In this document: positions 6,743 through 52,027 of the stretch, in pieces
Numbering within the stretch: position 1 is the first letter of the stretch
Layout of the letters: each line of letters starts with the position of its first letter
Source of the DNA: a virus
Lineage: Duplodnaviria > Heunggongvirae > Uroviricota > Caudoviricetes
Length of the DNA: 64,000 bases
IMG/VR virus record: IMGVR_UViG_3300031760_000015
Coordinates: 43,641-107,640 of that record
Direction: 5' to 3' (one strand)
The notes under the pieces: generated by a model
The model's input: only the letters and a program-made list of their open reading frames with translations
The model's database searches: none
Told to the model about the DNA's origin: nothing
Made by a program: the position numbers and the translations under genes

Positions 6743-8470
6743 ATGTCTGATTTTATCGTAAAAAATATTGATGAAGAACCCACTTTTGTTTTAGAGCAAG
6801 TTGTTGATCAAGCTTTAGTTAATGATGGTCATATCTTAGTTGACGCAGCTACTAAAAATACTTTCGTAGATAAAAATATTCATATTGATTTAGAAGTTCC
6901 TAATGCTTCTGCTCCAGTACTAGATGTAACTGATATTACTGGTTCTATTACTATGGGAACCGCAACGGACGGTGTTTATTCTCCTGTGGCAAATCTTTCC
7001 GGTACAGTAAATGTAGCTAGTGCTGGTTGGATGTCTGCTGGCAATAAAAATGTTTCCGAAAATGGAGTAAAGATTGGTAAGGTCAATCAATCTACTTTAA
7101 AGAATGGTAATACTGCCATTGCTAGTGGCGCAGAAATTACTCCTTCTGACGAAGATCAAACAATTAATATTTCTGAAGGTTATAATGCTGCTCGTACTGT
7201 TGTTGTTAAAGCCGCAAGTGAAAGTGACCCAGCAACTGTTGTTTCTGGTAACGCTACTGTTTCTACTTTAACTTATACCGCTGATAGTACAAATCACACA
7301 TTTGATATTAGTGGTACTGAAACTATTCCAGCTCCTAGCGTAACTACTCCTGGTTTTATTTCTACAACTAAAGGCACTAAGACTGCTGGTACTGCTACTG
7401 TAGCAGCTACTGTTGATGAAGTTACTGTTGGCGTAATTGCTAGTGAAACTACTAAAAAGGTAAAGCCTGTTATTGCTCGTACAGCTAAGCCTTCTGGCGA
7501 TGCGTGGGTTGATGCTGCTTCTGGCGCCGCAACTACTTCTAAACCAAGTGCTGGAGCTTATGTTCGTGTAGATGCTGCCGCTATTGCTGAAAGCGTAACC
7601 GCAACTGGTAAAGTAAGCCAAGCTGGTTATGGTACTACTACAGATTATCAAGCAGATACTGCTACCACTATTAATGTTGGTTCTAATGCTGCTGATAGTA
7701 CTTATATACCAGTTACTGCTGGTACTGTAACTGCTAATGGCGCTACTGTTAGCTCTGTTGCTTTAGCTTATAATTCCACAGGTGGAAACTTTGATGTTAC
7801 TGGTTCTGCTAATATTCCTGCTCCTACTGTTGGAACTGCTGGTTATGTTGGTGACGGTGTTGGAGCAGCTAATGGTTTATCTAATGGTGCTCAAGTTGCA
7901 GCTACTGTAGCTAAAGTTGGTATTGCTGCTTCTGTTACTGGTGGAAATGCTGTAACTCCTGTTATTTCTAAAGATGCTGCCACTAATGTTGATGCTAGTG
8001 CTGCAACTACTTCTCAACCTTCTGCTGGATTCTATGTAGCTGTTAATACCGCGGCCGATTCCTCTACTGTTAATGCTGCTGCTGCAGTAACTAGCGCAGG
8101 TTATGGTACTACTACTGATGGTCAATATACTACTACTCCTGCTAGTAAGACTGTTACTGTCAATGCAGCTGGAACAACTTATGTACCAATTACTGCTGCT
8201 TCTTTTGCTAATGCAGCAACTAATGGTCAAACTTATACAGATATTTCTAGTACAGCTCCAATTTTAGTATCTGATGATTATCTATATATTAATAAAGGCT
8301 ATACTAATAACGTAAAAATTAGTCTTGCTCAATTAGTACCAGATGATGCTACTATTACTGCTGCGACTGGTGCAGCTTATATGTTAAGCGGACAAAGTGC
8401 TTATGATAGTCAAGGTAAGTTAGTTGTGGGTAGTATTCCAACTTATAGCGGATCTTATACAATTGGTTAA
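6743..8470 (+). CDS. tail fibre-like protein (S/T/A/G-rich, internal repeats SxPSAGxYVxV...AGYGTTTD)
   Basis: composition, internal repeats; C-terminal AYDSQGKLVVGSIPTYSGSYT motif shared with next gene. Confidence 0.55.
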   Translation: MSDFIVKNIDEEPTFVLEQVVDQALVNDGHILVDAATKNTFVDKNIHIDLEVPNASAPVLDVTDITGSITMGTATDGVYSPVANLSGTVNVASAGWMSAGNKNVSENGVKIGKVNQSTLKNGNTAIASGAEITPSDEDQTINISEGYNAARTVVVKAASESDPATVVSGNATVSTLTYTADSTNHTFDISGTETIPAPSVTTPGFISTTKGTKTAGTATVAATVDEVTVGVIASETTKKVKPVIARTAKPSGDAWVDAASGAATTSKPSAGAYVRVDAAAIAESVTATGKVSQAGYGTTTDYQADTATTINVGSNAADSTYIPVTAGTVTANGATVSSVALAYNSTGGNFDVTGSANIPAPTVGTAGYVGDGVGAANGLSNGAQVAATVAKVGIAASVTGGNAVTPVISKDAATNVDASAATTSQPSAGFYVAVNTAADSSTVNAAAAVTSAGYGTTTDGQYTTTPASKTVTVNAAGTTYVPITAASFANAATNGQTYTDISSTAPILVSDDYLYINKGYTNNVKISLAQLVPDDATITAATGAAYMLSGQSAYDSQGKLVVGSIPTYSGSYTIG

Positions 8471-26716: not shown

Positions 26717-27070
26717 ATGAAATTTTATTCAGATGTAACAAAGCAATTTTATGACACTGAGAAGGCTTGTTTAGAAGCTGAGTTTAAGGTAAAGGAAAAG
26801 CAAAATCGAGAAAAGATTTTACGTGAAAAGGCTGAACGCGAAGCTAAGGAAAAGCAAGAAGCTCTTGCTGCTGAACGTAAGACTCGCGCGCAGGAAGTAG
26901 AGGATGCTCGTAAAGCTATGGTAACAGCACAACATAAGTATAGTGAATTACTTGAGGTTTTCTGTAAAGATTATGGAACTTTTCATCAAACTCTAACTGG
27001 TGAAGATGCCAAGGGTATTATTCCTACTCTATTTGATATTTTCAATCCTTTATTCTTTGACTTTAAGTAA
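26717..27070 (+). CDS. coiled-coil K/E-rich hypothetical protein
   Basis: ORF track, RBS AAGGAGAGG. Confidence 0.5.
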   Translation: MKFYSDVTKQFYDTEKACLEAEFKVKEKQNREKILREKAEREAKEKQEALAAERKTRAQEVEDARKAMVTAQHKYSELLEVFCKDYGTFHQTLTGEDAKGIIPTLFDIFNPLFFDFK

Positions 27071-27121
27071 AAAATCTGGTATAATATTTATGTAAGGTTG
27101 AGGGAATACCTCACCTTATAG

Positions 27122-27194
27122 GTCATCATAGTTCAGTTGGTAGAACACTTCATTGGTAATGAAGAGGTCCCGAGTCCGATTCTCGGTGGTGGCT
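27122..27194 (+). tRNA. tRNA-Thr(GGT)
   Basis: hand-folded cloverleaf; anticodon loop TTGGTAA; T-loop TCCGATT. Confidence 0.55.
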
Positions 27195-27198
27195 CTTA

Positions 27199-27376
27199 TA
27201 GACCTGTAACAGCAATATAAAATTGGACTGTAAATCCCGAAAGATTGTGGGTTCGACTCCCACTCAGCCCCACCATTTATATGGGGCTGTGGCGCAACGG
27301 TTGACGCACGTGAAAAATTGGGTCTAGCATGTGCTGTAACGGGGAGAGGAGCACATTAATATCCCCTTTCCACCAT
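27199..27376 (+). ncRNA. E1: YACAGCAAU-motif element containing a circularly permuted tRNA-like core (T-arm + 3' acceptor CAGCCCC-A-CCA, 7-nt spacer, 5' acceptor GGGGCTG + D-arm) followed by two long hairpins
   Basis: motif TGTAACAGCAAT 27206-27216; T-arm 27247-27263; acceptor halves 27265-27271 and 27283-27289 perfectly complementary; CTGTAAC repeated at 27204 and 27344. Confidence 0.5.
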
Positions 27377-27450
27377 CGGAATGTAGCACAGTTGGTTAGT
27401 GCAATGGTCCGATAAACCAGAGATCGTTGGTTCAAATCCAACCATTCCGA
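27377..27450 (+). tRNA. tRNA-Ile(GAT)
   Basis: acceptor CGGAATG/CATTCCG, D-arm GCAC..GTGC, anticodon loop CCGATAA, T-arm GTTGGTTCAAATCCAAC. Confidence 0.7.
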
Positions 27451-27663
27451 CTTAGTATCAAATCCATCCGATATGGCTGTGGCTACAAGGTGCAGAAGGA
27501 TGGCGGTTGTCTAACGCCTATATGAGTTGAAACGATATATACTATATAGGATGAAATAAAGCAAAAAGCAAGAGAGTTAGAACACGTTAGTTTTACTGAT
27601 ATGAAAATGTAGCTGTGCTACCAGTGGCGCATACCGACATAACTTATGGACACTGGTTTATAA

Positions 27664-28001: not shown

Positions 28002-28004
28002 TTT

Positions 28005-28114
28005 TAAGACAGTTACAGCAAATTCAATTAGATTATTAGTATAGTGGATAATACATTAAACTTCCAATTTAAAAATCGTCAGTTCGACTCTGACATAATC
28101 GAAAAAACTGTCTT
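28005..28114 (+). ncRNA. E2: long-range 9-bp stem (AAGACAGTT/AACTGTCTT) + ACAGCAAATT motif enclosing an intact tRNA-Gly(TCC)
   Basis: stem strands 28005-28013 and 28106-28114; motif 28014-28023. Confidence 0.55.
28030..28102 (+). tRNA. tRNA-Gly(TCC)
   Basis: D-arm GTAT..ATAC, anticodon arm TTAAA-CTTCCAA-TTTAA, T-arm GTCAGTTCGACTCTGAC; 1-72 A/G mismatch. Confidence 0.55.
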
Positions 28115-28122
28115 GTTATTAT

Positions 28123-28529: not shown

Positions 28530-28536
28530 CTTATAG

Positions 28537-28655
28537 AGTCGCTCACAGCAATTGTTCTTATAGAACATATGGGTTCAAATCCCATAATACGCACAGCGTA
28601 TTTAGCCAAATGGTCAAGGCAGATGTCTAACAAACATCCTTCTATTAAAGCGACT
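28537..28655 (+). ncRNA. E3: stem-framed (AGTCGCT/AGCGACT) CACAGCAAT element enclosing a circularly permuted tRNA (T-arm + 3' acceptor AATACGC-ACA-GCGTATT 5' acceptor + D-arm + anticodon arm with loop CTAACAA)
   Basis: T-arm ATGGGTTCAAATCCCAT 28568-28584; acceptor halves 28585-28591 and 28595-28601 perfectly complementary; no T-arm follows the 5' half. Confidence 0.55.
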
Positions 28656-28668
28656 TGTTATATTTTAT

Positions 28669-28700
28669 AAGAGTTTGATTTTAATCAAACTCTTTTTTAT
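28669..28700 (+). terminator. rho-independent terminator closing the first tRNA island
   Basis: 12-bp stem AAGAGTTTGATT/AATCAAACTCTT then TTTTTT. Confidence 0.65.
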
Positions 28701-28723
28701 ACTTCCAAAAAGAAGGTGAGATT

Positions 28724-30639: not shown

Positions 30640-30726
30640 GCGTCGGTATGCCTAGCAGCGAGAGCACTTGGCTGTAGACCAAGTACGTTAGAAACACCGT
30701 GGGTGCAACTCCTACCCGGCGCACCA
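30640..30726 (+). tRNA. tRNA-Tyr(GTA), type II
   Basis: anticodon arm CTTGG-CTGTAGA-CCAAG, long variable arm, CCA. Confidence 0.65.
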
Positions 30727-34376: not shown

Positions 34377-34414
34377 GGGCGTCTAGCACAGTTGGTCAGT
34401 GCCTTCGGCTCATA
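34377..34414 (+). tRNA. tRNA-Met(CAT) 5' exon (acceptor, D-arm, anticodon stem + CTCATA)
   Basis: GGGCGTC-TA-GCACAGTTGGTCAGTGC-C-TTCGG-CTCATA; 3' partner at 34869-34904. Confidence 0.55.
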
Positions 34415-34442
34415 TCAAGCAAAATCATATCTATAAATTATT

Positions 34443-34853
34443 ATGGATACAAATATTAAAGGTATTATTACCGAATTAAAATGTAAAACTTATTTTTTAG
34501 AATTGGGATATACTGTCTCAACTCCAGAAAATCCAACGAGGTATGATTTTATTTTAGACACTGGAAATAAACTTATAAAAATTCAGGTTAAAACTTGTAC
34601 TTCAGATGGAGAAAAATTAAGTTTTGCTACTTGTTCTAGTCATTTTGTAAATGGAAAAGTTACTCATACTCATTATCAAAATGATAATATTGATTATTTT
34701 TGTACTTGGTATAATAATGAATGTTATCTAATTCCTGTATCAGAGTGTGGGAAAACTGAAAAAAAATTACGATTAGTTCCCACACGAAATGGACAAGTAA
34801 AAAAAATTAGTTTTGCTAAGGATTATATTGCTAAGGAGGTTTTAAATAGATAA
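34443..34853 (+). CDS. PD-(D/E)XK-like homing endonuclease within the tRNA-Met intervening sequence
   Basis: YDFILD ... KIQVKT motifs; paralog of 50608 gene; located between the tRNA halves. Confidence 0.45.
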   Translation: MDTNIKGIITELKCKTYFLELGYTVSTPENPTRYDFILDTGNKLIKIQVKTCTSDGEKLSFATCSSHFVNGKVTHTHYQNDNIDYFCTWYNNECYLIPVSECGKTEKKLRLVPTRNGQVKKISFAKDYIAKEVLNR

Positions 34854-34868
34854 GTGAGCTAGATATGA

Positions 34869-34904
34869 ACCGAATGGTCTTGGGTTCGAGCCCCAAGGCG
34901 CCCA
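34869..34904 (+). tRNA. tRNA-Met(CAT) 3' exon (A38, anticodon stem CCGAA, variable loop, T-arm, acceptor GGCGCCC)
   Basis: T-arm TTGGGTTCGAGCCCCAA; acceptor complementary to 34377-34383; flanking GATATGA pairs with the CTCATATC end of exon 1. Confidence 0.55.
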
Positions 34905-36072: not shown

Positions 36073-36984
36073 ATGAAAAAAATTAAAAAGAATGGTTTAT
36101 CTTTTGGAATTTTTGGTGCTATTGCCGCAATTCTTGTTGTTCTATTATTTATAGACTTGACTACGCCACAATATGGATTTTTTGCAAAAGTTAATGCAGG
36201 TTATGTGGGTATTAGAGAATATTTTGGCAAAGTGCCTGATGAACCGTTACAACCAGGTTTTCATGTGACTCGTTTTTTTGAGCATGTTCATCCTGTCGAT
36301 GTTAGAACTCAACGCAACACTTATAAAATGGAAGCATTTAGTTCCGATATTCAGCAAGTAATTGTTACAGTTGCAGTAAATAGTAATATTTCATCTGAAT
36401 CTGCGGGAACCTTATATAAAACTGTTGGTATGAATTATCTTACTACTCTAATGGAACCTCGTCTATTAGAAAATGTAAAAGTTGTAATTAGTCAATATAC
36501 CGCAGAATCTTTAATTGCTCAACGAGAAACTTTATCTAAACAAGTTTTAGAATTAATGCAACAAGATTTAAAGTCTTATGGAATTGTTATTAGTAATATT
36601 TCTGTAGAAAATATAGATTTTACAGATGCTTTTGAATCAAGTGTAGAAGCTAAACAAGTTGCTACTCAAGAAAAACAAAGAGCTAAAACCATTCAAGAAC
36701 AGCAAACTATGGAAGCTCAACAAGCAGCAGAGCGTCAAAAGATTGCTGCGCAAGCAGAAGCAGAAGTAGCTAAAACAAAAGCAGATGCAGAAGCATATGT
36801 TGTTCGCGCAAAGGCAGAAGCAGAGGCAGAAGCTAATAAGAAAATCAATGAATCTTTAACTCGCGATTTAATTGATTATACACAAGTTCAAACTTGGGAT
36901 GGTAAGTTACCTACTTTTGTAGGCGGAGATTCTAGTATTCCTATTTTTAATATTGAAACAGAAACTACGTCAACTCAGGAATAA
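36073..36984 (+). CDS. SPFH/band-7 (prohibitin/HflK-like) membrane protein
   Basis: N-terminal TM, SPFH core, C-terminal QA/EA-rich coiled coil. Confidence 0.6.
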   Translation: MKKIKKNGLSFGIFGAIAAILVVLLFIDLTTPQYGFFAKVNAGYVGIREYFGKVPDEPLQPGFHVTRFFEHVHPVDVRTQRNTYKMEAFSSDIQQVIVTVAVNSNISSESAGTLYKTVGMNYLTTLMEPRLLENVKVVISQYTAESLIAQRETLSKQVLELMQQDLKSYGIVISNISVENIDFTDAFESSVEAKQVATQEKQRAKTIQEQQTMEAQQAAERQKIAAQAEAEVAKTKADAEAYVVRAKAEAEAEANKKINESLTRDLIDYTQVQTWDGKLPTFVGGDSSIPIFNIETETTSTQE

Positions 36985-36998
36985 TATGAATACATATA

Positions 36999-37024
36999 AA
37001 CGCACGGGAAACCGTGCGTTTTTC
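36999..37024 (+). terminator. rho-independent terminator
   Basis: AACGCACGG-GAAA-CCGTGCGTT then TTTTT. Confidence 0.7.
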
Positions 37025-37027
37025 TAT

Positions 37028-37056
37028 TTGACTTGGTATAAAAATTATGATATAAT
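37028..37056 (+). promoter_or_regulatory. sigma-A-type promoter TTGACT-N17-TATAAT
   Basis: -35 37028-37033, -10 37051-37056. Confidence 0.55.
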
Positions 37057-37080
37057 ATGTTTAGACAAGGAGGAGATAAT

Positions 37081-46623: not shown

Positions 46624-46688
46624 ATATGTAAGAACGACGATTACAGCAATTAATAAGTAAACATAGCTATTGGAGTTATTTCTACTGT
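46624..46688 (+). ncRNA. E4a: stem (ACGACG/CGTCGT) + ATTACAGCAATT motif hairpin element, no tRNA inside
   Basis: motif 46632-46643 directly 3' of the stem 5' strand. Confidence 0.45.
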
Positions 46689-46702
46689 TCGTCGTGCTGA
46701 TT

Positions 46703-46777
46703 GAAATTAAAGGCGGATACAGCAATTTTATATTTTAAGTAATAATCTGTTAAATTATCGCACTTAATAATAACCGC
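46703..46777 (+). ncRNA. E4b: stem (AGGCGG/CCGCCT) + ATACAGCAATT motif hairpin element
   Basis: motif 46709-46719. Confidence 0.45.
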
Positions 46778-46786
46778 CTAGAAATT

Positions 46787-47384: not shown

Positions 47385-47954
47385 GTGATTATTATGAAAA
47401 AATGGGAAAGGTTTTCTGATGAAGAGTTGCAAGAAATTGCTTATAGAAGTTCTTGCTTAGGAGACTACGCTAAAAATTTAGGCTATTCTATAAAAGGTAC
47501 TAGTGGTAATAGTGCTCGTTCTTCTGTAAAAGCAATGATTGAACTTAAACAAATAAATGTAATGCATTTTAAAGGTTATAAAGATAAATCTACACAATTT
47601 AATTATAAACATGTTAATGAAAATTATAATGTTAGTAATTTATTTATAGAAAATAGCTTCGCAGAAAGAAAACTTATTAGACGTTATTTATTAGCATATA
47701 ATTTAATTCCATATAAATGTGCTTTTTGTGGTAATGAAGGGGAATGGCGAGGAAAGCAGATTAGTTTAGAATTAGACCATATTAATGGCAAGCATAATGA
47801 TAATAGATTAGAAAATCTTCGTTGGCTTTGTCCAAATTGTCACGCTACTACTCCTACATACTGCGGTAAAAATATAACTTATCAATGTGAACAAGCCCTG
47901 TTAGCTCAGTCGGTAGAGCATTCGGCTGGTCAGATAGAAACAAGTCCTAGTTGA
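47385..47954 (+). CDS. HNH homing endonuclease
   Basis: CAFCG ... DHINGKHNDNRLENLRWLCPNCH; 3' end overlaps tRNA-Thr exon 1. Confidence 0.7.
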   Translation: MIIMKKWERFSDEELQEIAYRSSCLGDYAKNLGYSIKGTSGNSARSSVKAMIELKQINVMHFKGYKDKSTQFNYKHVNENYNVSNLFIENSFAERKLIRRYLLAYNLIPYKCAFCGNEGEWRGKQISLELDHINGKHNDNRLENLRWLCPNCHATTPTYCGKNITYQCEQALLAQSVEHSAGQIETSPS

Positions 47955-48020
47955 GTGCAAGACTCAAATCTGGCACCATTAACCGAAGTGTCGGCAGTTC
48001 AAGTCTGTCACAGGGCGCCA
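47895..48020 (+). tRNA. tRNA-Thr(GGT) interrupted by a 50-nt insert in the anticodon loop (insert 47931-47980, between nt 36 and 37)
   Basis: acceptor GCCCTGT/ACAGGGC, D-arm GCTCAGTCGGTAGAGC, anticodon stem TTCGG/CCGAA, T-arm GGCAGTTCAAGTCTGTC, CCA; insert folds into CAGAT/ATCTG and TTGAGT/ACTCAA helices. Confidence 0.55.
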
Positions 48021-48723: not shown

Positions 48724-48726
48724 CTT

Positions 48727-48850
48727 TTAGACTCAGCCAGCATATTTTTTACTTACGCATTGAGGAGCGAGTAGCATTGGTTCGAATCCAATTCTTCCCA
48801 CTATATGGGAAGATAGTGTAATGGTAGCACGCTTAATAGTATGAGTCTAG
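48727..48850 (+). ncRNA. E7: stem-framed (TAGACTCA/TGAGTCTA) element with degenerate motif (GCCAGCATAT) enclosing a circularly permuted tRNA-like core (T-arm + 3' acceptor TCTTCCC ... 5' acceptor GGGAAGA + D-arm)
   Basis: T-arm ATTGGTTCGAATCCAAT; acceptor halves perfectly complementary; D-arm GTGTAATGGTAGCAC. Confidence 0.45.
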
Positions 48851-48856
48851 TTTTAT

Positions 48857-49218: not shown

Positions 49219-49221
49219 TAA

Positions 49222-49313
49222 TAAGCCTTTACAGCAATTTTTAAATGGTTAAATTATTTTGTTTAAAGTACAGAGTAAGAGAAGGTTCGAGCCCTTCATA
49301 ATTAAAAGGCTTA
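49222..49313 (+). ncRNA. E5: 9-bp stem (TAAGCCTTT/AAAGGCTTA) + ACAGCAATTT motif element containing a T-arm-like hairpin (GAAGGTTCGAGCCCTTC)
   Basis: motif 49231-49240; T-arm-like 49281-49297. Confidence 0.45.
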
Positions 49314-49319
49314 GTATTT

Positions 49320-49986: not shown

Positions 49987-50002
49987 GTACAAATATTTAT
50001 AG

Positions 50003-50061
50003 AGACTCTTTCAGCAAAAGTAAATTTATAAGTCCTTACATTATAAAAAGAATATGAGTCT
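50003..50061 (+). ncRNA. stem (AGACTC/GAGTCT) + degenerate motif TTTCAGCAAAAG hairpin element
   Basis: same arrangement as E2-E9, motif diverged. Confidence 0.3.
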
Positions 50062-50075
50062 TGTAATTAAACTTT

Positions 50076-50176
50076 AAGTCCGTTACAGCAATTTTATATA
50101 AAAATTTAGAATTAATTTAATATGTTGGTTTATTAAAAATTTTGAAAATTTATTGATACGGACTTGATTTTTTTAT
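50076..50176 (+). ncRNA. E8: 8-bp stem (AAGTCCGT/ACGGACTT) + TACAGCAATT motif element with AT-rich loop, followed by a T-run (terminator-like)
   Basis: motif 50084-50093; T-run 50168-50176. Confidence 0.45.
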
Positions 50177-50551: not shown

Positions 50552-50587
50552 GGCGGGTTAAGCCTAATGGTAAGGCAGGAGATTGCT
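50552..50587 (+). tRNA. tRNA-Ser(GCT) 5' exon
   Basis: GGCGGGT-TA-AGCCTAATGGTAAGGC-A-GGAGA-TTGCT; partner exon at 51251-51309. Confidence 0.5.
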
Positions 50588-50607
50588 TTTTTACTTAATT
50601 AAACTTA

Positions 50608-51225
50608 ATGGTAGAAACAAAGATTAAAGGGCTTACGACAGAATTATTATGTCAGGCATATCTTACTTCTTTAGGATATAATATTTCTATTCCTATTGGC
50701 GAAGATTGTAGATATGATATGATTCTGGATTTAAATGGAAAACTTTTGCGTATACAAGTTAAAACTTGTCAAGAAGAAGAAAATAGAATATCTTTTCGTA
50801 CTTGTAGTATTACAACATCCGGAAAAGAAAATATTATTCATAAATATACTAAAGACCAAATTGATTTAATAGCTACTTATTATAATGACCAATGTTATTT
50901 AATTCCAATTGAAGAATGTGAAGGAATGAAAGGTAGAAGTTTAGTTTTTTCACCAGAAAAAACAAATGCTATTAAACCTTTATATATTAAAGATTATACA
51001 GCAGAAATCATTTTAAATAAAATCCTTAATAATGAACAAATTAAAAAGGAGGATGATTTTATTGTGTATCAATATGATTTAAATAATAACTTACTTAATC
51101 AATTTTCTTCATACGCAGAAGCAGGAACTTCCATTAACAAACCTTCTAGTCATATAAGTCAATGTGCTAGAGGATTAAGAAAAACCGCATATGGTTTTAT
51201 TTGGTCATTAACATTAAAGGATTAA
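50608..51225 (+). CDS. PD-(D/E)XK-like homing endonuclease with NUMOD-like C-terminus, inside the tRNA-Ser intervening sequence
   Basis: YDMILD ... RIQVKT; C-terminal ...CARGLRKTAYGFIWS; paralog of 34443 gene. Confidence 0.45.
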   Translation: MVETKIKGLTTELLCQAYLTSLGYNISIPIGEDCRYDMILDLNGKLLRIQVKTCQEEENRISFRTCSITTSGKENIIHKYTKDQIDLIATYYNDQCYLIPIEECEGMKGRSLVFSPEKTNAIKPLYIKDYTAEIILNKILNNEQIKKEDDFIVYQYDLNNNLLNQFSSYAEAGTSINKPSSHISQCARGLRKTAYGFIWSLTLKD

Positions 51226-51250
51226 GAAAGAAAAAAAGCAATCTCCCAGT

Positions 51251-51309
51251 AATCGACGTATGTCGGTGTTTCGGTTCAAGTCCGAAACCCGTCGCCAATT
51301 GTGGACTGT
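51251..51309 (+). tRNA. tRNA-Ser(GCT) 3' exon (AA, anticodon stem TCTCC, variable-arm hairpin CGAC-GTAT-GTCG, T-arm, acceptor ACCCGTC, G, CCA)
   Basis: acceptor complementary to 50552-50558; intron-proximal AAAAGCAA pairs with TTGCTTTT of exon 1. Confidence 0.5.
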
Positions 51310-51925: not shown

Positions 51926-51930
51926 CTTAT

Positions 51931-52010
51931 TTTAGACATTCACAGCAATAATAAGCAATGCCATTATTTAAATTTAAATCAAAAGATTATTGCAACTTTT
52001 GTAGTGTCTA
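51931..52010 (+). ncRNA. E9: stem (TAGACA/TGTCTA) + TTCACAGCAATAAT motif element with AT-rich loop
   Basis: motif 51939-51952. Confidence 0.45.
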
Positions 52011-52027
52011 GTTTATAGGAGAAAAAT

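What the first reader, a model, noticed from the sequence alone, without database searches (positions are those of the whole stretch)
27199..27376. E1: permuted tRNA-like core with encoded CCA plus duplicated CTGTAAC junction words
T-arm GTGGG-TTCGACT-CCCAC is followed by CAGCCCC-A-CCA, TTTATAT, GGGGCTG-TG and a D-arm-like GCGCAACGGTTGACGC (acceptor halves 7/7 complementary). Downstream there are two long hairpins instead of a normal anticodon arm. The heptamer CTGTAAC occurs at both the 5' edge (27204, fused to AGCAAT) and the 3' side (27344), which suggests a joining or circularisation site. A 1-nt irregularity (extra T between T-stem and acceptor) makes this the least clean example.
Basis: seen in the sequence. 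Interest (0 to 1): 0.65.

Follow-up and report, generated by a model that had tools for sequence, protein, structure and literature searches.

The report
Phage permuted tRNA-like Y RNA
The spacer between two phage tRNA genes encodes a complete tRNA-Tyr-like RNA with its two halves in swapped order, one of a large and apparently undescribed phage family that has the architecture of bacterial tRNA-mimicking Y RNAs and sits next to genes for a Ro60-like protein.

Summary
Bases 27247-27307 read T arm, acceptor 3' strand, ACCA, 7-nt linker, acceptor 5' strand, D arm. The anticodon arm is not missing: GGA-CUGUAAA-UCCCG (GUA, Tyr) lies upstream at 27225-27239, and C27-G28 after the D arm (27309-10) complete its stem. 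Rejoined in silico, E1 is called tRNA-Tyr by ARAGORN.

E1 (27196-27327) is closed by a leader-trailer helix (27199-27206 with 27319-27326), followed by a conserved CAGCAAU (27210-16). I found over 100 elements with this design in uncultivated phages, including three more in this window. Covariation is strong in the closing, T, acceptor and D helices.

The CTGTAAC "junction words" are chance. They are absent from orthologues, and the second copy (really 27334) lies in a separate pseudoknot motif.

The layout is that of YrlA, the tRNA-like Y RNA bound by Ro60. The window's ORF 38483-40111 (DUF2828) models as a Ro60 fold, and its homologues sit beside these elements, on the same strand, in divergent phages.

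Best reading: a phage YrlA-like Y RNA, probably cut by RNase P to expose its encoded CCA. It differs from YrlA in having a real anticodon loop, many copies per genome and a different conserved motif. Maturation into a working tRNA is not excluded.

The parts
27057..27085 (+). Sigma-70-type promoter-like site (TTGACT-17-TGnTATAAT) ahead of the tRNA operon that contains E1
   Evidence: 11 of 12 matches, with TG extension. A consensus match only.
27199..27206 (+). Leader strand of the closing helix (UAGACCUG)
   Evidence: Pairs with 27319-27326. Family-wide the helix averages 8.3 bp against 5.0 in shuffled trailers, and all 7 modelled pairs show changes on both sides.
27210..27216 (+). Conserved single-stranded word CAGCAAU, 10-11 nt from the base of the helix
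   Evidence: Proposed protein-binding motif; this is an inference.
27225..27239 (+). Anticodon hairpin G29-G43: GGA CUGUAAA UCCCG. The anticodon GUA (Tyr) is at 27230-27232.
   Evidence: U33 and A37 are canonical. The orthologues L133 and L144 carry GAA here.
27240..27246 (+). Variable region AAAGAUU; its last U can pair with A15
   Evidence: direct reading
27247..27263 (+). T arm GUGGG-UUCGACU-CCCAC
27264..27264 (+). Extra U between the T stem and the acceptor strand
   Evidence: Conserved in L133, absent in L144.
27265..27275 (+). Acceptor 3' strand CAGCCCC, discriminator A, and encoded CCA
   Evidence: N-CCA follows the acceptor 3' strand in 22 of 73 family members.
27276..27282 (+). AU-rich linker UUUAUAU capping the acceptor stem. 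Predicted to be removed by RNase P, with the cut 5' of G27283.
   Evidence: Direct reading. The cleavage is inferred from M. smegmatis YrlA (PMC4201824).
27283..27310 (+). Acceptor 5' strand GGGGCUG, U8 G9, D arm (27292-27307), A26, and C27 G28, which pair with C42 G43 (27238-39)
27311..27318 (+). A-rich trailer spacer UGAAAAAU
   Evidence: Aligns with the A-rich 3' strand of the YrlA internal loop.
27319..27327 (+). Trailer strand of the closing helix (UGGGUCUA) plus the conserved G
28533..28660 (+). Sister element E2. Its complete anticodon arm (AAC) lies in the 5' piece, and the junction falls in the variable region. It is followed by a terminator-like hairpin at 28669-28703.
   Evidence: (56 bits; not used to build the model)
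48725..48853 (+). Sister element E4, with an 8-nt anticodon loop. Its relative L123 carries GUG at the same place.
   Evidence: 99.8 bits
49864..49990 (+). Sister element E5, with loop AUAUUAA (anticodon AUU) and encoded G-CCA
   Evidence: 85.7 bits
38483..40111 (+). Gene for a Ro60-like (TROVE + vWA fold) protein, the proposed protein partner
   Evidence: Pfam DUF2828 + DUF7788. AF2 model pLDDT 76.7. The top 8 Foldseek PDB hits are all Ro60, E 4e-7 to 1e-5. Linkage to the RNA elements.

Best explanation
E1 is a phage-encoded, tRNA-mimicking Y-RNA-like RNA of the YrlA type, that is, a circularly permuted tRNA.

Proposed course of events:
1. It is transcribed with the flanking tRNAs from the promoter at about 27057-27085 and set free when tRNA-Thr and tRNA-Ile are processed.
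2. It folds into a full tRNA L-shape. The acceptor stem is capped by ACCA-UUUAUAU. The anticodon stem is completed by two nucleotides from the far end of the RNA.
3. Its own 5' and 3' ends form an 8-bp helix that projects from the anticodon stem.
4. That helix, the adjacent CAGCAAU and the A-rich opposite strand are the docking site for the phage's Ro60-like ring protein (ORF 38483-40111).
5. RNase P probably cuts before G27283, so the encoded ACCA becomes a free 3' end. This would give a two-piece tRNA-like particle held together by the acceptor stem, the tertiary core and the terminal helix, as shown for M. smegmatis YrlA.
6. The tRNA-like half then presents a tRNA-Tyr look-alike to tRNA-binding factors, as a tether or a decoy.

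Shown here: the anatomy, the family, the covariation, the Ro60 fold of the protein, and the genomic linkage.
Inferred: protein binding, RNase P cleavage, and the tether or decoy function.
For: **Architecture**
- The order of parts equals the Rfam YrlA consensus: terminal stem, internal loop, stem, T arm, capped acceptor, UA, D arm, stem.
- YrlA is the only Rfam family that aligns full-length to family members, with sub-threshold scores of 37, 33, 32 and 31 bits in a 53-kb search.
- M. smegmatis YrlA, which has a 7-bp acceptor stem, is cut by RNase P and receives CCA in vivo. Both halves were recovered with Rsr in the immunoprecipitate (PMC4201824).

**Protein partner**
- ORF 38483-40111 models as Ro60. 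The top 8 PDB hits are all Ro60, including a phage Ro60; probability 1.0, 516-586 aligned columns.
- The MIDAS motif DxSxS is invariant in the family alignment.

**Linkage**
- Homologues of the protein (30-39% identity) lie in 16 of the 120 loci fetched by the RNA pattern alone. In 13 of the 15 of these scanned with the model, elements lie within about 0.7 kb on the same strand.
- Of 80 loci fetched by the protein alone, 25 hold permuted elements, all on the gene's strand.
- The covariance model finds 41 hits at E<=1e-6 in 75 loci not used for training, all on the gene's strand.
- Density is 0.25 per kb upstream on the same strand, against 0.03 downstream and 0.017 on the opposite strand.

**Structure is real**
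- 96.7% of cells are paired, against 61.6% when shuffled and 35-50% when slid.
- This was replicated on independent sequences: 95.5% against 64.7% and 32-45%.

**Not ordinary decoders**
- 14 of 47 anticodons duplicate a canonical tRNA in the same locus. The random expectation is 16.6-19.4; canonical tRNAs duplicate each other in 58 of 569 cases.
- The window already has a class-II tRNA-Tyr(GUA) at 30640-30723.
- Orthologues of one body carry different anticodons.
Against: - E1 itself scores only 13.5 bits against Rfam YrlA, where the gathering score is 69.
- The published Ro60-binding motif GNCGAAN0-1G (CGAA) is absent; CAGCAAU stands in its place.
- The Ro60-like gene is 11 kb from E1, and the protein is not recognised as TROVE by Pfam.
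- The same wrapper also surrounds normal-order tRNAs, such as tRNA-Gly at 28030-28103, and short AT-rich cargo. It may therefore be a general pre-tRNA element rather than a Y-RNA stem.
- Ten or more wrapped units in one window is far more than the one to four Y RNAs known per genome.
- Canonical anticodon loops are kept (U33 in 52 of 63 parsed elements, purine 37 in 58 of 63), and CCA is strongly enriched. These look like selection for real tRNA function.
- No binding, cleavage or expression data exist.
Confidence: 0.55

Rival explanations
1. E1 is a genuine circularly permuted tRNA-Tyr gene. The leader-trailer helix juxtaposes G28 and G29 on the 3' strand of the anticodon stem. The flaps are removed and the nick is sealed, for example by the phage Rnl2-type RNA ligase at 41746-42396. 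RNase P and 3' processing then open the acceptor loop, yielding a working tRNA. A variant of this idea is that the RNA works unligated, as a two-piece tRNA.
For: - All tRNA hallmarks are present, and the in-silico rejoined sequence is called tRNA-Tyr(gta). 71 of 73 elements can be rejoined into sequences that ARAGORN calls as tRNAs.
- In the n = 2-3 subgroup examined by eye, the 2-3 nt after N26 complete the anticodon stem perfectly.
- N-CCA is present in 22 of 73 members, against about 1 expected by chance.
- U33 and purine 37 are conserved.
- An RNA ligase is encoded nearby (Pfam PF09414).
- In this window, anticodons for Val (AAC) and Asn (AUU) are seen only in permuted elements.
- The wrapper also flanks normal tRNAs.
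Against: - No bulge-helix-bulge motif is present, and no bacterial or phage enzyme is known that would excise such flaps.
- The junction position varies widely: 26/27, 28/29, 29/30, 31/32 and the variable region.
- Anticodons duplicate canonical ones at close to the random rate. A canonical tRNA-Tyr already exists in the window.
- A34 anticodons and 8-nt loops are frequent.
- The ligase is found in only 12 of 80 related loci.
- Some subfamilies keep a conserved capping loop, UUGGUC, instead of CCA.
- An unligated helix protruding from positions 28-30 should clash with the ribosomal P site; this rests on general knowledge, not on a test here.
Confidence: 0.25
2. The helix plus CAGCAAU wrapper is a general precursor-RNA element, for example a stability clamp or a site for some other nuclease or chaperone. 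It has no connection with the Ro60-like protein. The co-location only reflects the fact that both lie in the tRNA region of one phage lineage.
For: - The wrapper surrounds normal tRNAs, tRNA-like cargo and AT-rich cargo.
- In the window's own clade the elements are spread over 0.5-10 kb upstream of the gene and are not adjacent to it.
Against: - In clades where the protein is only 30-39% identical, the elements directly flank the gene on the same strand in 13 of 15 loci.
- The terminal stem with a conserved 5'-strand motif opposite an A-rich strand matches the layout of a Y-RNA Ro-binding module.
Confidence: 0.12
3. E1 is a DNA-level relic: inverted repeats of a small mobile cassette, or debris from recombination between tandem tRNA genes, with no function as RNA.
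For: - The element is flanked by inverted repeats with conserved outer bases (TTAGAC...GTCTAG).
- Homing endonuclease genes are abundant in the region.
Against: - Inner helix positions vary freely but stay complementary, G-U pairs included. Acceptor, T and D stems covary.
- All elements lie on the transcribed strand of the tRNA operons.
- The order of the conserved bases is the mirror image of an integron attC site; this comes from direct reading against the known attC consensus.
Confidence: 0.05
4. E1 is a miniature two-piece (permuted) tmRNA.
For: Rfam tmRNA_permuted gives a partial match of 22.7 bits over the T arm, acceptor, CCA, linker and acceptor. Phage-encoded permuted tmRNAs do exist in relatives, for example L040 at 7967-8218 with 116 bits.
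Against: - The score is below the gathering score of 47, and only 58 of 213 model positions are matched.
- E1 has G3-C70, not G3-U70.
- There is no tag reading frame and no pseudoknots within the 132 nt.
- ARAGORN finds no tmRNA.
- A real D stem and a real anticodon loop are present.
Confidence: 0.02

Closest known systems
YrlA (Rfam RF02553), the tRNA-like Y RNA bound by bacterial Ro60/Rsr (Chen et al. 2014, PMC4201824; Wang et al. 2018, 10.1101/312249)
   Same: - The order of parts is the same: a terminal 5'/3' stem, an internal loop with a conserved 5'-strand motif opposite an A-rich strand, T arm, loop-capped acceptor stem, UA, D arm.
- The tRNA tertiary nucleotides are conserved.
- It is encoded on the same strand next to a Ro60-fold gene.
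- The M. smegmatis member has a 7-bp acceptor stem, is cut by RNase P and ends in CCA.
   Different: - E1 has a genuine 7-nt anticodon loop (GUA). YrlA 'lacks the anticodon loop'.
- CCA is encoded in full.
- The conserved motif is CAGCAAU, not GNCGAAN0-1G.
- The terminal helix leaves the body at variable points: anticodon stem positions 26-31 or the variable region.
- There are four or more copies, plus six or more wrapper-only units, in one 64-kb window.
- The partner protein belongs to DUF2828/DUF7788, not to Pfam TROVE.
- The Rfam score is 13.5 bits against a gathering score of 69.
Yrl1 and Yrl2 of Thermus phage phiLo with the phage Ro60 (PMC12135203)
   Same: These are phage-encoded Y-like RNAs upstream of a phage Ro60 gene, with a stem-bulge-stem layout and a conserved motif in the bulge. 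The phage Ro60 structures (9KOP, 9L5Y) are among the best fold matches to the window's protein.
   Different: The Yrl RNAs were defined by a CGAA motif, and the passages I read do not describe them as tRNA-like. That paper proposes hijacking of the host PNPase, which I could not test here.
Circularly permuted tRNA genes of Cyanidioschyzon merolae and some archaea (from my own knowledge; not checked in the papers here)
   Same: The 3' half lies upstream of the 5' half. A short linker joins the CCA end to the 5' end. Leader and trailer pair with each other. The junction falls at variable positions in the tRNA.
   Different: - Those use a bulge-helix-bulge motif, the tRNA splicing endonuclease and a circular intermediate. 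E1 has no such motif, and no such enzyme is known in bacteria or phages.
- Here the anticodons are redundant with canonical tRNAs, and the elements are linked to a Ro60-like gene.
Two-piece (permuted) tmRNA
   Same: A permuted gene with T arm, acceptor, CCA, linker and acceptor. The two pieces stay paired without ligation.
   Different: E1 has no tag reading frame, no pseudoknots and no G3-U70. It has a full D stem and an anticodon loop, and it is only about 130 nt long.

Membership tests
YrlA / tRNA-like Y RNA | tRNA-like domain in permuted order: T arm, loop-capped acceptor stem, UA, D arm, with the conserved tertiary nucleotides | tested here: met
   Direct reading. YrlA model alignment. 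ARAGORN call on the rejoined sequence. U8, A14, G18G19, A15:U48, T54-Psi55-C56 and A58 are all present.
YrlA / tRNA-like Y RNA | Score at or above the Rfam RF02553 gathering score (69 bits) | tested here: not met
   E1 scores 13.5 bits. The best family members score 37, 33, 32 and 31 bits.
YrlA / tRNA-like Y RNA | Terminal 5'/3' stem carrying the Ro60-binding motif GNCGAAN0-1G | tested here: not met
   The stem is present and covaries. The conserved word is CAGCAAU, and there is no CGAA.
YrlA / tRNA-like Y RNA | Encoded next to, and on the same strand as, a Ro60 orthologue | tested here: inconclusive
   A gene with the Ro60 fold is present, but it is 11 kb from E1 and is not a Pfam TROVE protein. 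Across the family the linkage is tight.
YrlA / tRNA-like Y RNA | Bound by Ro60 in vivo | not testable with these tools
   Needs immunoprecipitation or a gel-shift assay.
YrlA / tRNA-like Y RNA | No anticodon loop and no free CCA end (S. Typhimurium type) | tested here: not met
   E1 has the loop CUGUAAA and an encoded ACCA. Only the M. smegmatis member is known to acquire CCA.
Circularly permuted tRNA gene (C. merolae / archaeal type) | The 3' half lies upstream of the 5' half of one and the same tRNA | tested here: met
   Acceptor halves are 7/7 complementary. The rejoined sequence is called tRNA-Tyr.
Circularly permuted tRNA gene (C. merolae / archaeal type) | Bulge-helix-bulge motif at the leader/trailer-exon boundaries | tested here: not met
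   The junction is an asymmetric three-way junction with single strands of 8 and about 18 nt. There is no 3-nt bulge / 4-bp / 3-nt bulge arrangement.
Circularly permuted tRNA gene (C. merolae / archaeal type) | Circular RNA intermediate and a contiguous mature tRNA | not testable with these tools
   Needs RNA-seq or RT-PCR across the junction.
Circularly permuted tRNA gene (C. merolae / archaeal type) | Supplies a decoding function that canonical genes do not | tested here: inconclusive
   For E1 this is not met, because a canonical tRNA-Tyr(GUA) lies at 30640-30723. Family-wide, duplication is close to the random rate. However, the AAC and AUU anticodons of E2 and E5 are unique in the window.
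Two-piece tmRNA | G3-U70 pair, tag reading frame, pseudoknots, and Rfam or ARAGORN detection | tested here: not met
   E1 has G3-C70. ARAGORN finds no tmRNA. RF04321 gives a partial match of 22.7 bits against a gathering score of 47.
Ro60 / TROVE protein (for ORF 38483-40111) | HEAT-repeat ring plus a vWA domain with a MIDAS motif | tested here: met
   The AF2 model has full-length Foldseek matches to 1YVR, 2NVO, 9KOP and 9L5Y. D345, S347 and S349 are invariant. Sequence-level searches of Pfam TROVE and PDB chains find nothing.

The most novel reading that the evidence does not exclude
These are the first circularly permuted tRNA genes found in bacteriophages. On this reading, their two halves are assembled into aminoacylatable tRNAs, either ligated across the anticodon stem or variable region or working as two-piece molecules. 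A Ro60-like chaperone docks on the leader-trailer helix and helps, together with an RNA ligase. That would make bacterial YrlA Y RNAs decayed relatives of a tRNA-assembly system, and would give Ro60 a role in tRNA biogenesis or repair.
Probability: 0.2. Interest if true: 0.9.

Novelty: new variant of a known kind. Interest (0 to 1): 0.62.

Why it matters
**An unexplained RNA class.** Why bacterial Y RNAs mimic tRNA, and what the tRNA-like half of YrlA binds, is still open. This phage family supplies over 100 natural variants that keep a complete cloverleaf. Anticodon loops, and often an encoded CCA, are retained. The Ro-docking stem leaves the body at different points. That gives an experimentally tractable series for asking whether Ro60-type proteins act on tRNAs or tRNA-binding factors.

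**A protein family gains a likely identity.** The large DUF2828/DUF7788 family (thousands of members) can now be proposed as Ro60-like, with a candidate RNA partner and binding motif.

**Annotation.** ARAGORN misses these elements, and no Rfam family reaches its gathering score on them. Phage tRNA repertoires may therefore be mis-counted.

**If the rival is right.** If the elements mature into working tRNAs, they would be a new route of tRNA biogenesis in the bacterial world.

Tried and rejected
- **CTGTAAC as a junction signal:** rejected.
- **tmRNA:** rejected.
- **Known self-cleaving ribozymes.** I considered hammerhead, HDV-like/theta, twister, pistol and hatchet, flanking or inside the wrapper. 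No Rfam match appears at E<=10 in 27196-27376, and by my own reading the junction topology does not fit a hammerhead or HDV-like fold.
- **Group I permuted intron-exon arrangement:** rejected, because only about 30 nt of leader lie between tRNA-Thr and the element.
- **Integron attC-like site:** the conserved outer bases are in mirror order.
- **Promoter or terminator reading of the motif:** rejected, because the variable bases between TTAGA and CAGCAAT covary with the trailer.
- **Cultured relatives:** a search of cultured phages found only tRNA-level matches.
- **Literature:** searches for permuted tRNA genes in phages found nothing. DUF2828 has no functional literature in the library.
- **T arms at 34880 and 51270:** these turned out to be 3' halves of intron-split tRNAs, not permuted elements.
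- **RNA ligase co-occurrence with the Ro60-like gene:** weak, 12 of 80 loci.
- **Complementarity of anticodon sets:** tested and found close to random.
- **Caveat on method:** my generic wrapper finder is noisy (449 real against 254 shuffled). Only the stricter version and the covariance model were used for conclusions.
Full report
**1. What is in the sequence**

The window is a phage-like region with 26 ARAGORN tRNAs, plus further ones found only by Rfam, all on the + strand. The finding fills the 181-nt gap between tRNA-Thr (27122-27195) and tRNA-Ile (27377-27451).

Direct reading confirms the following:
- T arm GTGGG-TTCGACT-CCCAC, 27247-63
- one extra T, 27264
- CAGCCCC, A-CCA, TTTATAT, then GGGGCTG (7/7 complementary)
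- TG, then a D arm, 27292-27307

A window-wide scan for this 'acceptor-CCA-loop-acceptor' arrangement behind a T arm finds only this site.

- The anticodon arm is present, but upstream: GGA-CUGUAAA-UCCCG at 27225-39, with anticodon GUA, U33 and A37.
- The two nucleotides after A26 (C27 G28, 27309-10) pair with C42 G43. The 5-bp anticodon stem is therefore built from both ends of the element.
- The outermost sequences pair with each other: UAGACCUG (27199-206) with UGGGUCUA (27319-326).

Joining 27283-27310 to 27225-27275 gives a 79-nt sequence that ARAGORN calls tRNA-Tyr(gta).

**2. The CTGTAAC words**

A repeated heptamer occurs in 47% of shuffles of this 181-nt stretch.

The orthologues L133:2472-2602 and L144:2907-3036 share the core at about 86% identity, but their leader reads CAAGACCCATACAGCAAT, with no CTGTAAC.

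The 27334 copy lies in a separate motif, 27328-27376. This is a hairpin (AUGUGCU/AGCACAU) whose loop GGAGAGG can pair with the downstream CCUUUCC. It has one homologue, L057:6559-6605, also just upstream of a tRNA, and every stem position there has changed in a compensatory way. The joining-site idea is therefore not supported.

**3. A family, not a one-off**

A T-arm scan found the same layout at 28569 (E2), 48776 (E4) and 49906 (E5). All share a leader-trailer helix and the word CAGCAAT just 3' of the leader strand.

A pattern scan of IMG/VR (CAGCAAT, 15-45 nt, T loop) returned 120 loci. Together with the loci fetched later by the protein, I parsed 73 distinct elements.

The consensus is:
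- 5'-(U)UA-AG-R-N5-7 as the helix strand
- then 0-4 nt and CAGCAAU, which sits 10-11 nt from the base of the helix
- a U/A-rich spacer
- the 3' part of a tRNA, the acceptor 3' strand, a 3-12-nt cap, the acceptor 5' strand, the D arm and N26
- 0-5 nt of anticodon stem, or a whole anticodon arm
- an A-rich spacer
- the helix strand ending Y-C-U-(A/U)-G, followed by UU

The closing helix averages 8.3 bp, against 5.0 with shuffled trailers; 96% are at least 7 bp, against 14%.

RNAalifold on a plain MAFFT alignment of 34 members recovers the closing helix, T arm, capped acceptor stem and D stem. Of 22 pairs, 21 change on both sides. 96.7% of cells are paired, against 61.6% when shuffled and 35-50% when slid. 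One caveat: the members were selected partly for pairing.

A covariance model built from that alignment (R1) gave these results:
- E4 scores 99.8 bits, E5 85.7 and E1 75.3.
- E2, which was not used for training, scores 56 bits.
- In 75 loci not used for training, it finds 41 full-length hits at E<=1e-6, all on one strand.
- Covariation is reproduced there: 95.5% paired, against 64.7% and 32-45%.

**4. tRNA character of the cargo**

- Parsed anticodon loops are canonical: U33 in 52 of 63, purine 37 in 58 of 63. They span many specificities.
- 71 of 73 elements can be rejoined into sequences that ARAGORN calls as tRNAs, although that search is permissive.
- N-CCA follows the acceptor 3' strand in 22 of 73, where about 1 is expected. 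In E1-type members the linker ends in U before G+1, as RNase P prefers; that preference is general knowledge.
- The point where the terminal helix leaves the tRNA body varies: 26/27, 28/29 (E1, E4), 29/30, 31/32, or the start of the variable region (E2 and 14 others).

**5. Do they behave as decoders?**

- In the same loci, 14 of 47 clean anticodons duplicate a canonical tRNA. The random expectation is 16.6-19.4, whereas canonical tRNAs duplicate one another in only 58 of 569 cases.
- The window already holds a class-II tRNA-Tyr(GUA) at 30640-30723.
- Bodies that are clearly orthologous carry different anticodons. E1 has GUA where L133 and L144 have GAA. One 'UCUUU-CUNNNAA-AAAGA' body carries GAA, ACG, AUG, UAG or GUA.
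- A34 anticodons and 8-nt loops are common.
- On the other side, AAC (E2) and AUU (E5) occur nowhere else in the window.

**6. The wrapper is not restricted to permuted cargo**

The same helix plus CAGCAA(A/U) surrounds other cargo too:
- a normal-order tRNA-Gly(UCC) (wrapper 28005-28115, tRNA 28030-28103), and about 20 further normal tRNAs elsewhere
- a tRNA-like cargo without an acceptor stem (49222-49313, which ARAGORN calls 'Phe aaa')
- short AT-rich cargo (46634-46695, 46707-46784, 50002-50062, 50074-50167, 51932-52011)

**7. The link to Ro60**

I searched the RNA-pattern loci with all of the window's proteins. One stood out: ORF 38483-40111 (Pfam DUF2828 + DUF7788 + weak VWA_2) has homologues in 16 of those 120 loci.

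Its AlphaFold model (pLDDT 76.7, pTM 0.69) matches Ro60 in the top eight Foldseek PDB hits. These include X. laevis 1YVR, 2I91 and 1YVP, D. radiodurans Rsr 2NVO, and Thermus phage phiLo Ro60 9KOP and 9L5Y. E-values run from 4e-7 to 1e-5, with 516-586 aligned columns. The MIDAS motif DxSxS is invariant. Sequence-level searches do not see the relationship.

The reverse test also holds. Of 80 loci fetched by the protein alone (48-91% identity), 25 hold permuted elements, all on the gene's strand. Strict wrappers occur at 0.25 per kb upstream on the same strand, against 0.03 downstream and 0.017 on the other strand.

In clades where the protein is only 30-39% identical, elements flank the gene within about 0.7 kb on the same strand in 13 of 15 loci.

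**8. Comparison with what is known**

Ro60 proteins bind Y RNAs through a stem formed by the RNA's 5' and 3' ends. Bacterial YrlA Y RNAs carry a tRNA-like domain in exactly this order (Rfam consensus).

[quoted passage not shown] M. smegmatis YrlA, with its 7-bp acceptor stem, is cut by RNase P and gains CCA in vivo. Both halves were recovered with Rsr in the immunoprecipitate (PMC4201824). Phage Ro60 with Y-like RNAs upstream of its gene has been described for Thermus phage phiLo (PMC12135203).

YrlA is the only Rfam family that aligns full-length to members of the present family. The scores are sub-threshold: 36.9, 32.3 and 30.8 bits full-length and 32.9 bits for a partial match, against a gathering score of 69. 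E1 itself reaches only 13.5 bits.

E1 therefore works like a YrlA but fails formal membership:
- the score is too low
- the published GNCGAAN0-1G motif is replaced by CAGCAAU
- a real anticodon loop and an encoded CCA are present
- the partner protein belongs to a different sequence family
- copy number is far higher

**9. Mechanism**

Most likely (about 0.55), E1 is co-transcribed with nine tRNAs from a promoter-like site at 27057-85 and ends at a terminator-like hairpin at 28669-28703. It is released by processing of its neighbours and folds as a tRNA with a capped acceptor stem. It docks on the Ro60-like ring through the terminal helix and CAGCAAU. RNase P opens it at G27283, so that the ACCA is exposed. 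The result is a two-piece tRNA-Tyr look-alike, acting as a tether or decoy for tRNA-binding factors.

Anatomy, family, covariation, protein fold and linkage are shown. Binding, cleavage and function are inferred.

The main rival (about 0.25) is a true permuted tRNA gene that matures by flap removal and nick sealing on the anticodon-stem splint. An Rnl2-type ligase is encoded at 41746-42396, but it is found in only 12 of 80 related loci.

Lesser rivals are a Ro60-independent precursor element, a DNA-level relic, and a mini tmRNA.

**10. Context**

No cultured phage is similar beyond the tRNAs. The closest relatives are IMG/VR contigs of about 140-200 kb. A few hits in MAG contigs labelled Clostridia or Lachnospiraceae, from herbivore guts, hint at the host.

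**11. Verdict**

The 'permuted tRNA-like' reading is right. The 'CTGTAAC junction' reading is wrong. The element belongs to a large, apparently undescribed phage variant of the tRNA-mimicking Y-RNA class and is linked to a Ro60-like protein family of previously unknown function.

Noticed in passing
window 27328-27376; L057:6559-6605: A conserved motif of about 50 nt lies immediately upstream of tRNA-Ile. It is a hairpin (AUGUGCU/AGCACAU) whose loop GUAACGGGGAGAGG can pair with the downstream CCCCUUUCC, forming an H-type pseudoknot. The single homologue also precedes a tRNA, and all its stem positions have changed in a compensatory way. There is no Rfam match.
   Followed up: partly
window 28003-28118: A normal-order tRNA-Gly(UCC) (28030-28103) is enclosed by the same leader-trailer helix (TAAGACAGTT / AACTGTCTTG) plus CAGCAAA. 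About 20 more normal tRNAs are wrapped this way in related loci.
   Followed up: partly
window 46634-46695, 46707-46784, 49219-49317, 50002-50062, 50073-50169, 51930-52014: These are wrapper units (helix + CAGCAA[AU]) with short AT-rich cargo. In one case (49219-49317) the cargo is a tRNA-like RNA that lacks an acceptor stem, which ARAGORN reports as 'tRNA-Phe(aaa)'. They may correspond to the simpler YrlB-type Y RNAs.
   Followed up: partly
window 38483-40111: The DUF2828/DUF7788 protein is predicted to have a Ro60 (TROVE + vWA) fold. The family has more than 6,700 detectable relatives, and I found no functional literature for it.
   Followed up: yes
window 34377-34904: tRNA-Met/Ile(CAU) is split in its anticodon loop by an intron of about 450 nt. 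The intron carries a PD-(D/E)XK homing-endonuclease ORF (34443-34853).
   Followed up: partly
window 50552-51297: A class-II tRNA-Ser(GCU) is split by an intron of about 650 nt. The intron carries a PD-(D/E)XK + NUMOD1 endonuclease ORF (50608-51225). Its 3' half was one of the un-annotated T arms.
   Followed up: partly
window 47895-48017: A tRNA found only by Rfam (51.8 bits) carries an insert of about 50 nt in the anticodon loop. This is too short for a group I intron. The tRNA overlaps the end of an HNH endonuclease ORF (47385-47954).
   Followed up: no
window 30640-30723: A class-II tRNA-Tyr(GUA) is missed by ARAGORN but found by Rfam (38.2 bits). It makes E1's anticodon redundant.
   Followed up: yes
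window 42788-43665: An 880-nt stretch without ORFs, richer in G+C, lies between tRNA-Met and tRNA-Glu. It contains a drum RNA (43192-43303, 70.8 bits) and is possibly part of a larger structured RNA.
   Followed up: no
window 36073-42396: Several genes cluster around the Ro60-like gene: SPFH/Band-7 (36073-36984), DUF5662 (37057-37542), peptidyl-tRNA hydrolase PTH2 (37605-38108) and an Rnl2-type RNA ligase (41746-42396). The set has the flavour of RNA repair or quality control.
   Followed up: partly
L040:7967-8218: A related phage contig encodes a permuted (two-piece) tmRNA (cyano_tmRNA 116 bits, tmRNA_permuted 81 bits) about 230 nt upstream of its Ro60-like gene.
   Followed up: no
family-wide: Permuted elements often carry A34 anticodons (AUG, AGG, AAC, AUU, AAU, AGA) and sometimes 8-nt anticodon loops (E4, L057). 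Both are unusual for bacterial decoders.
   Followed up: partly
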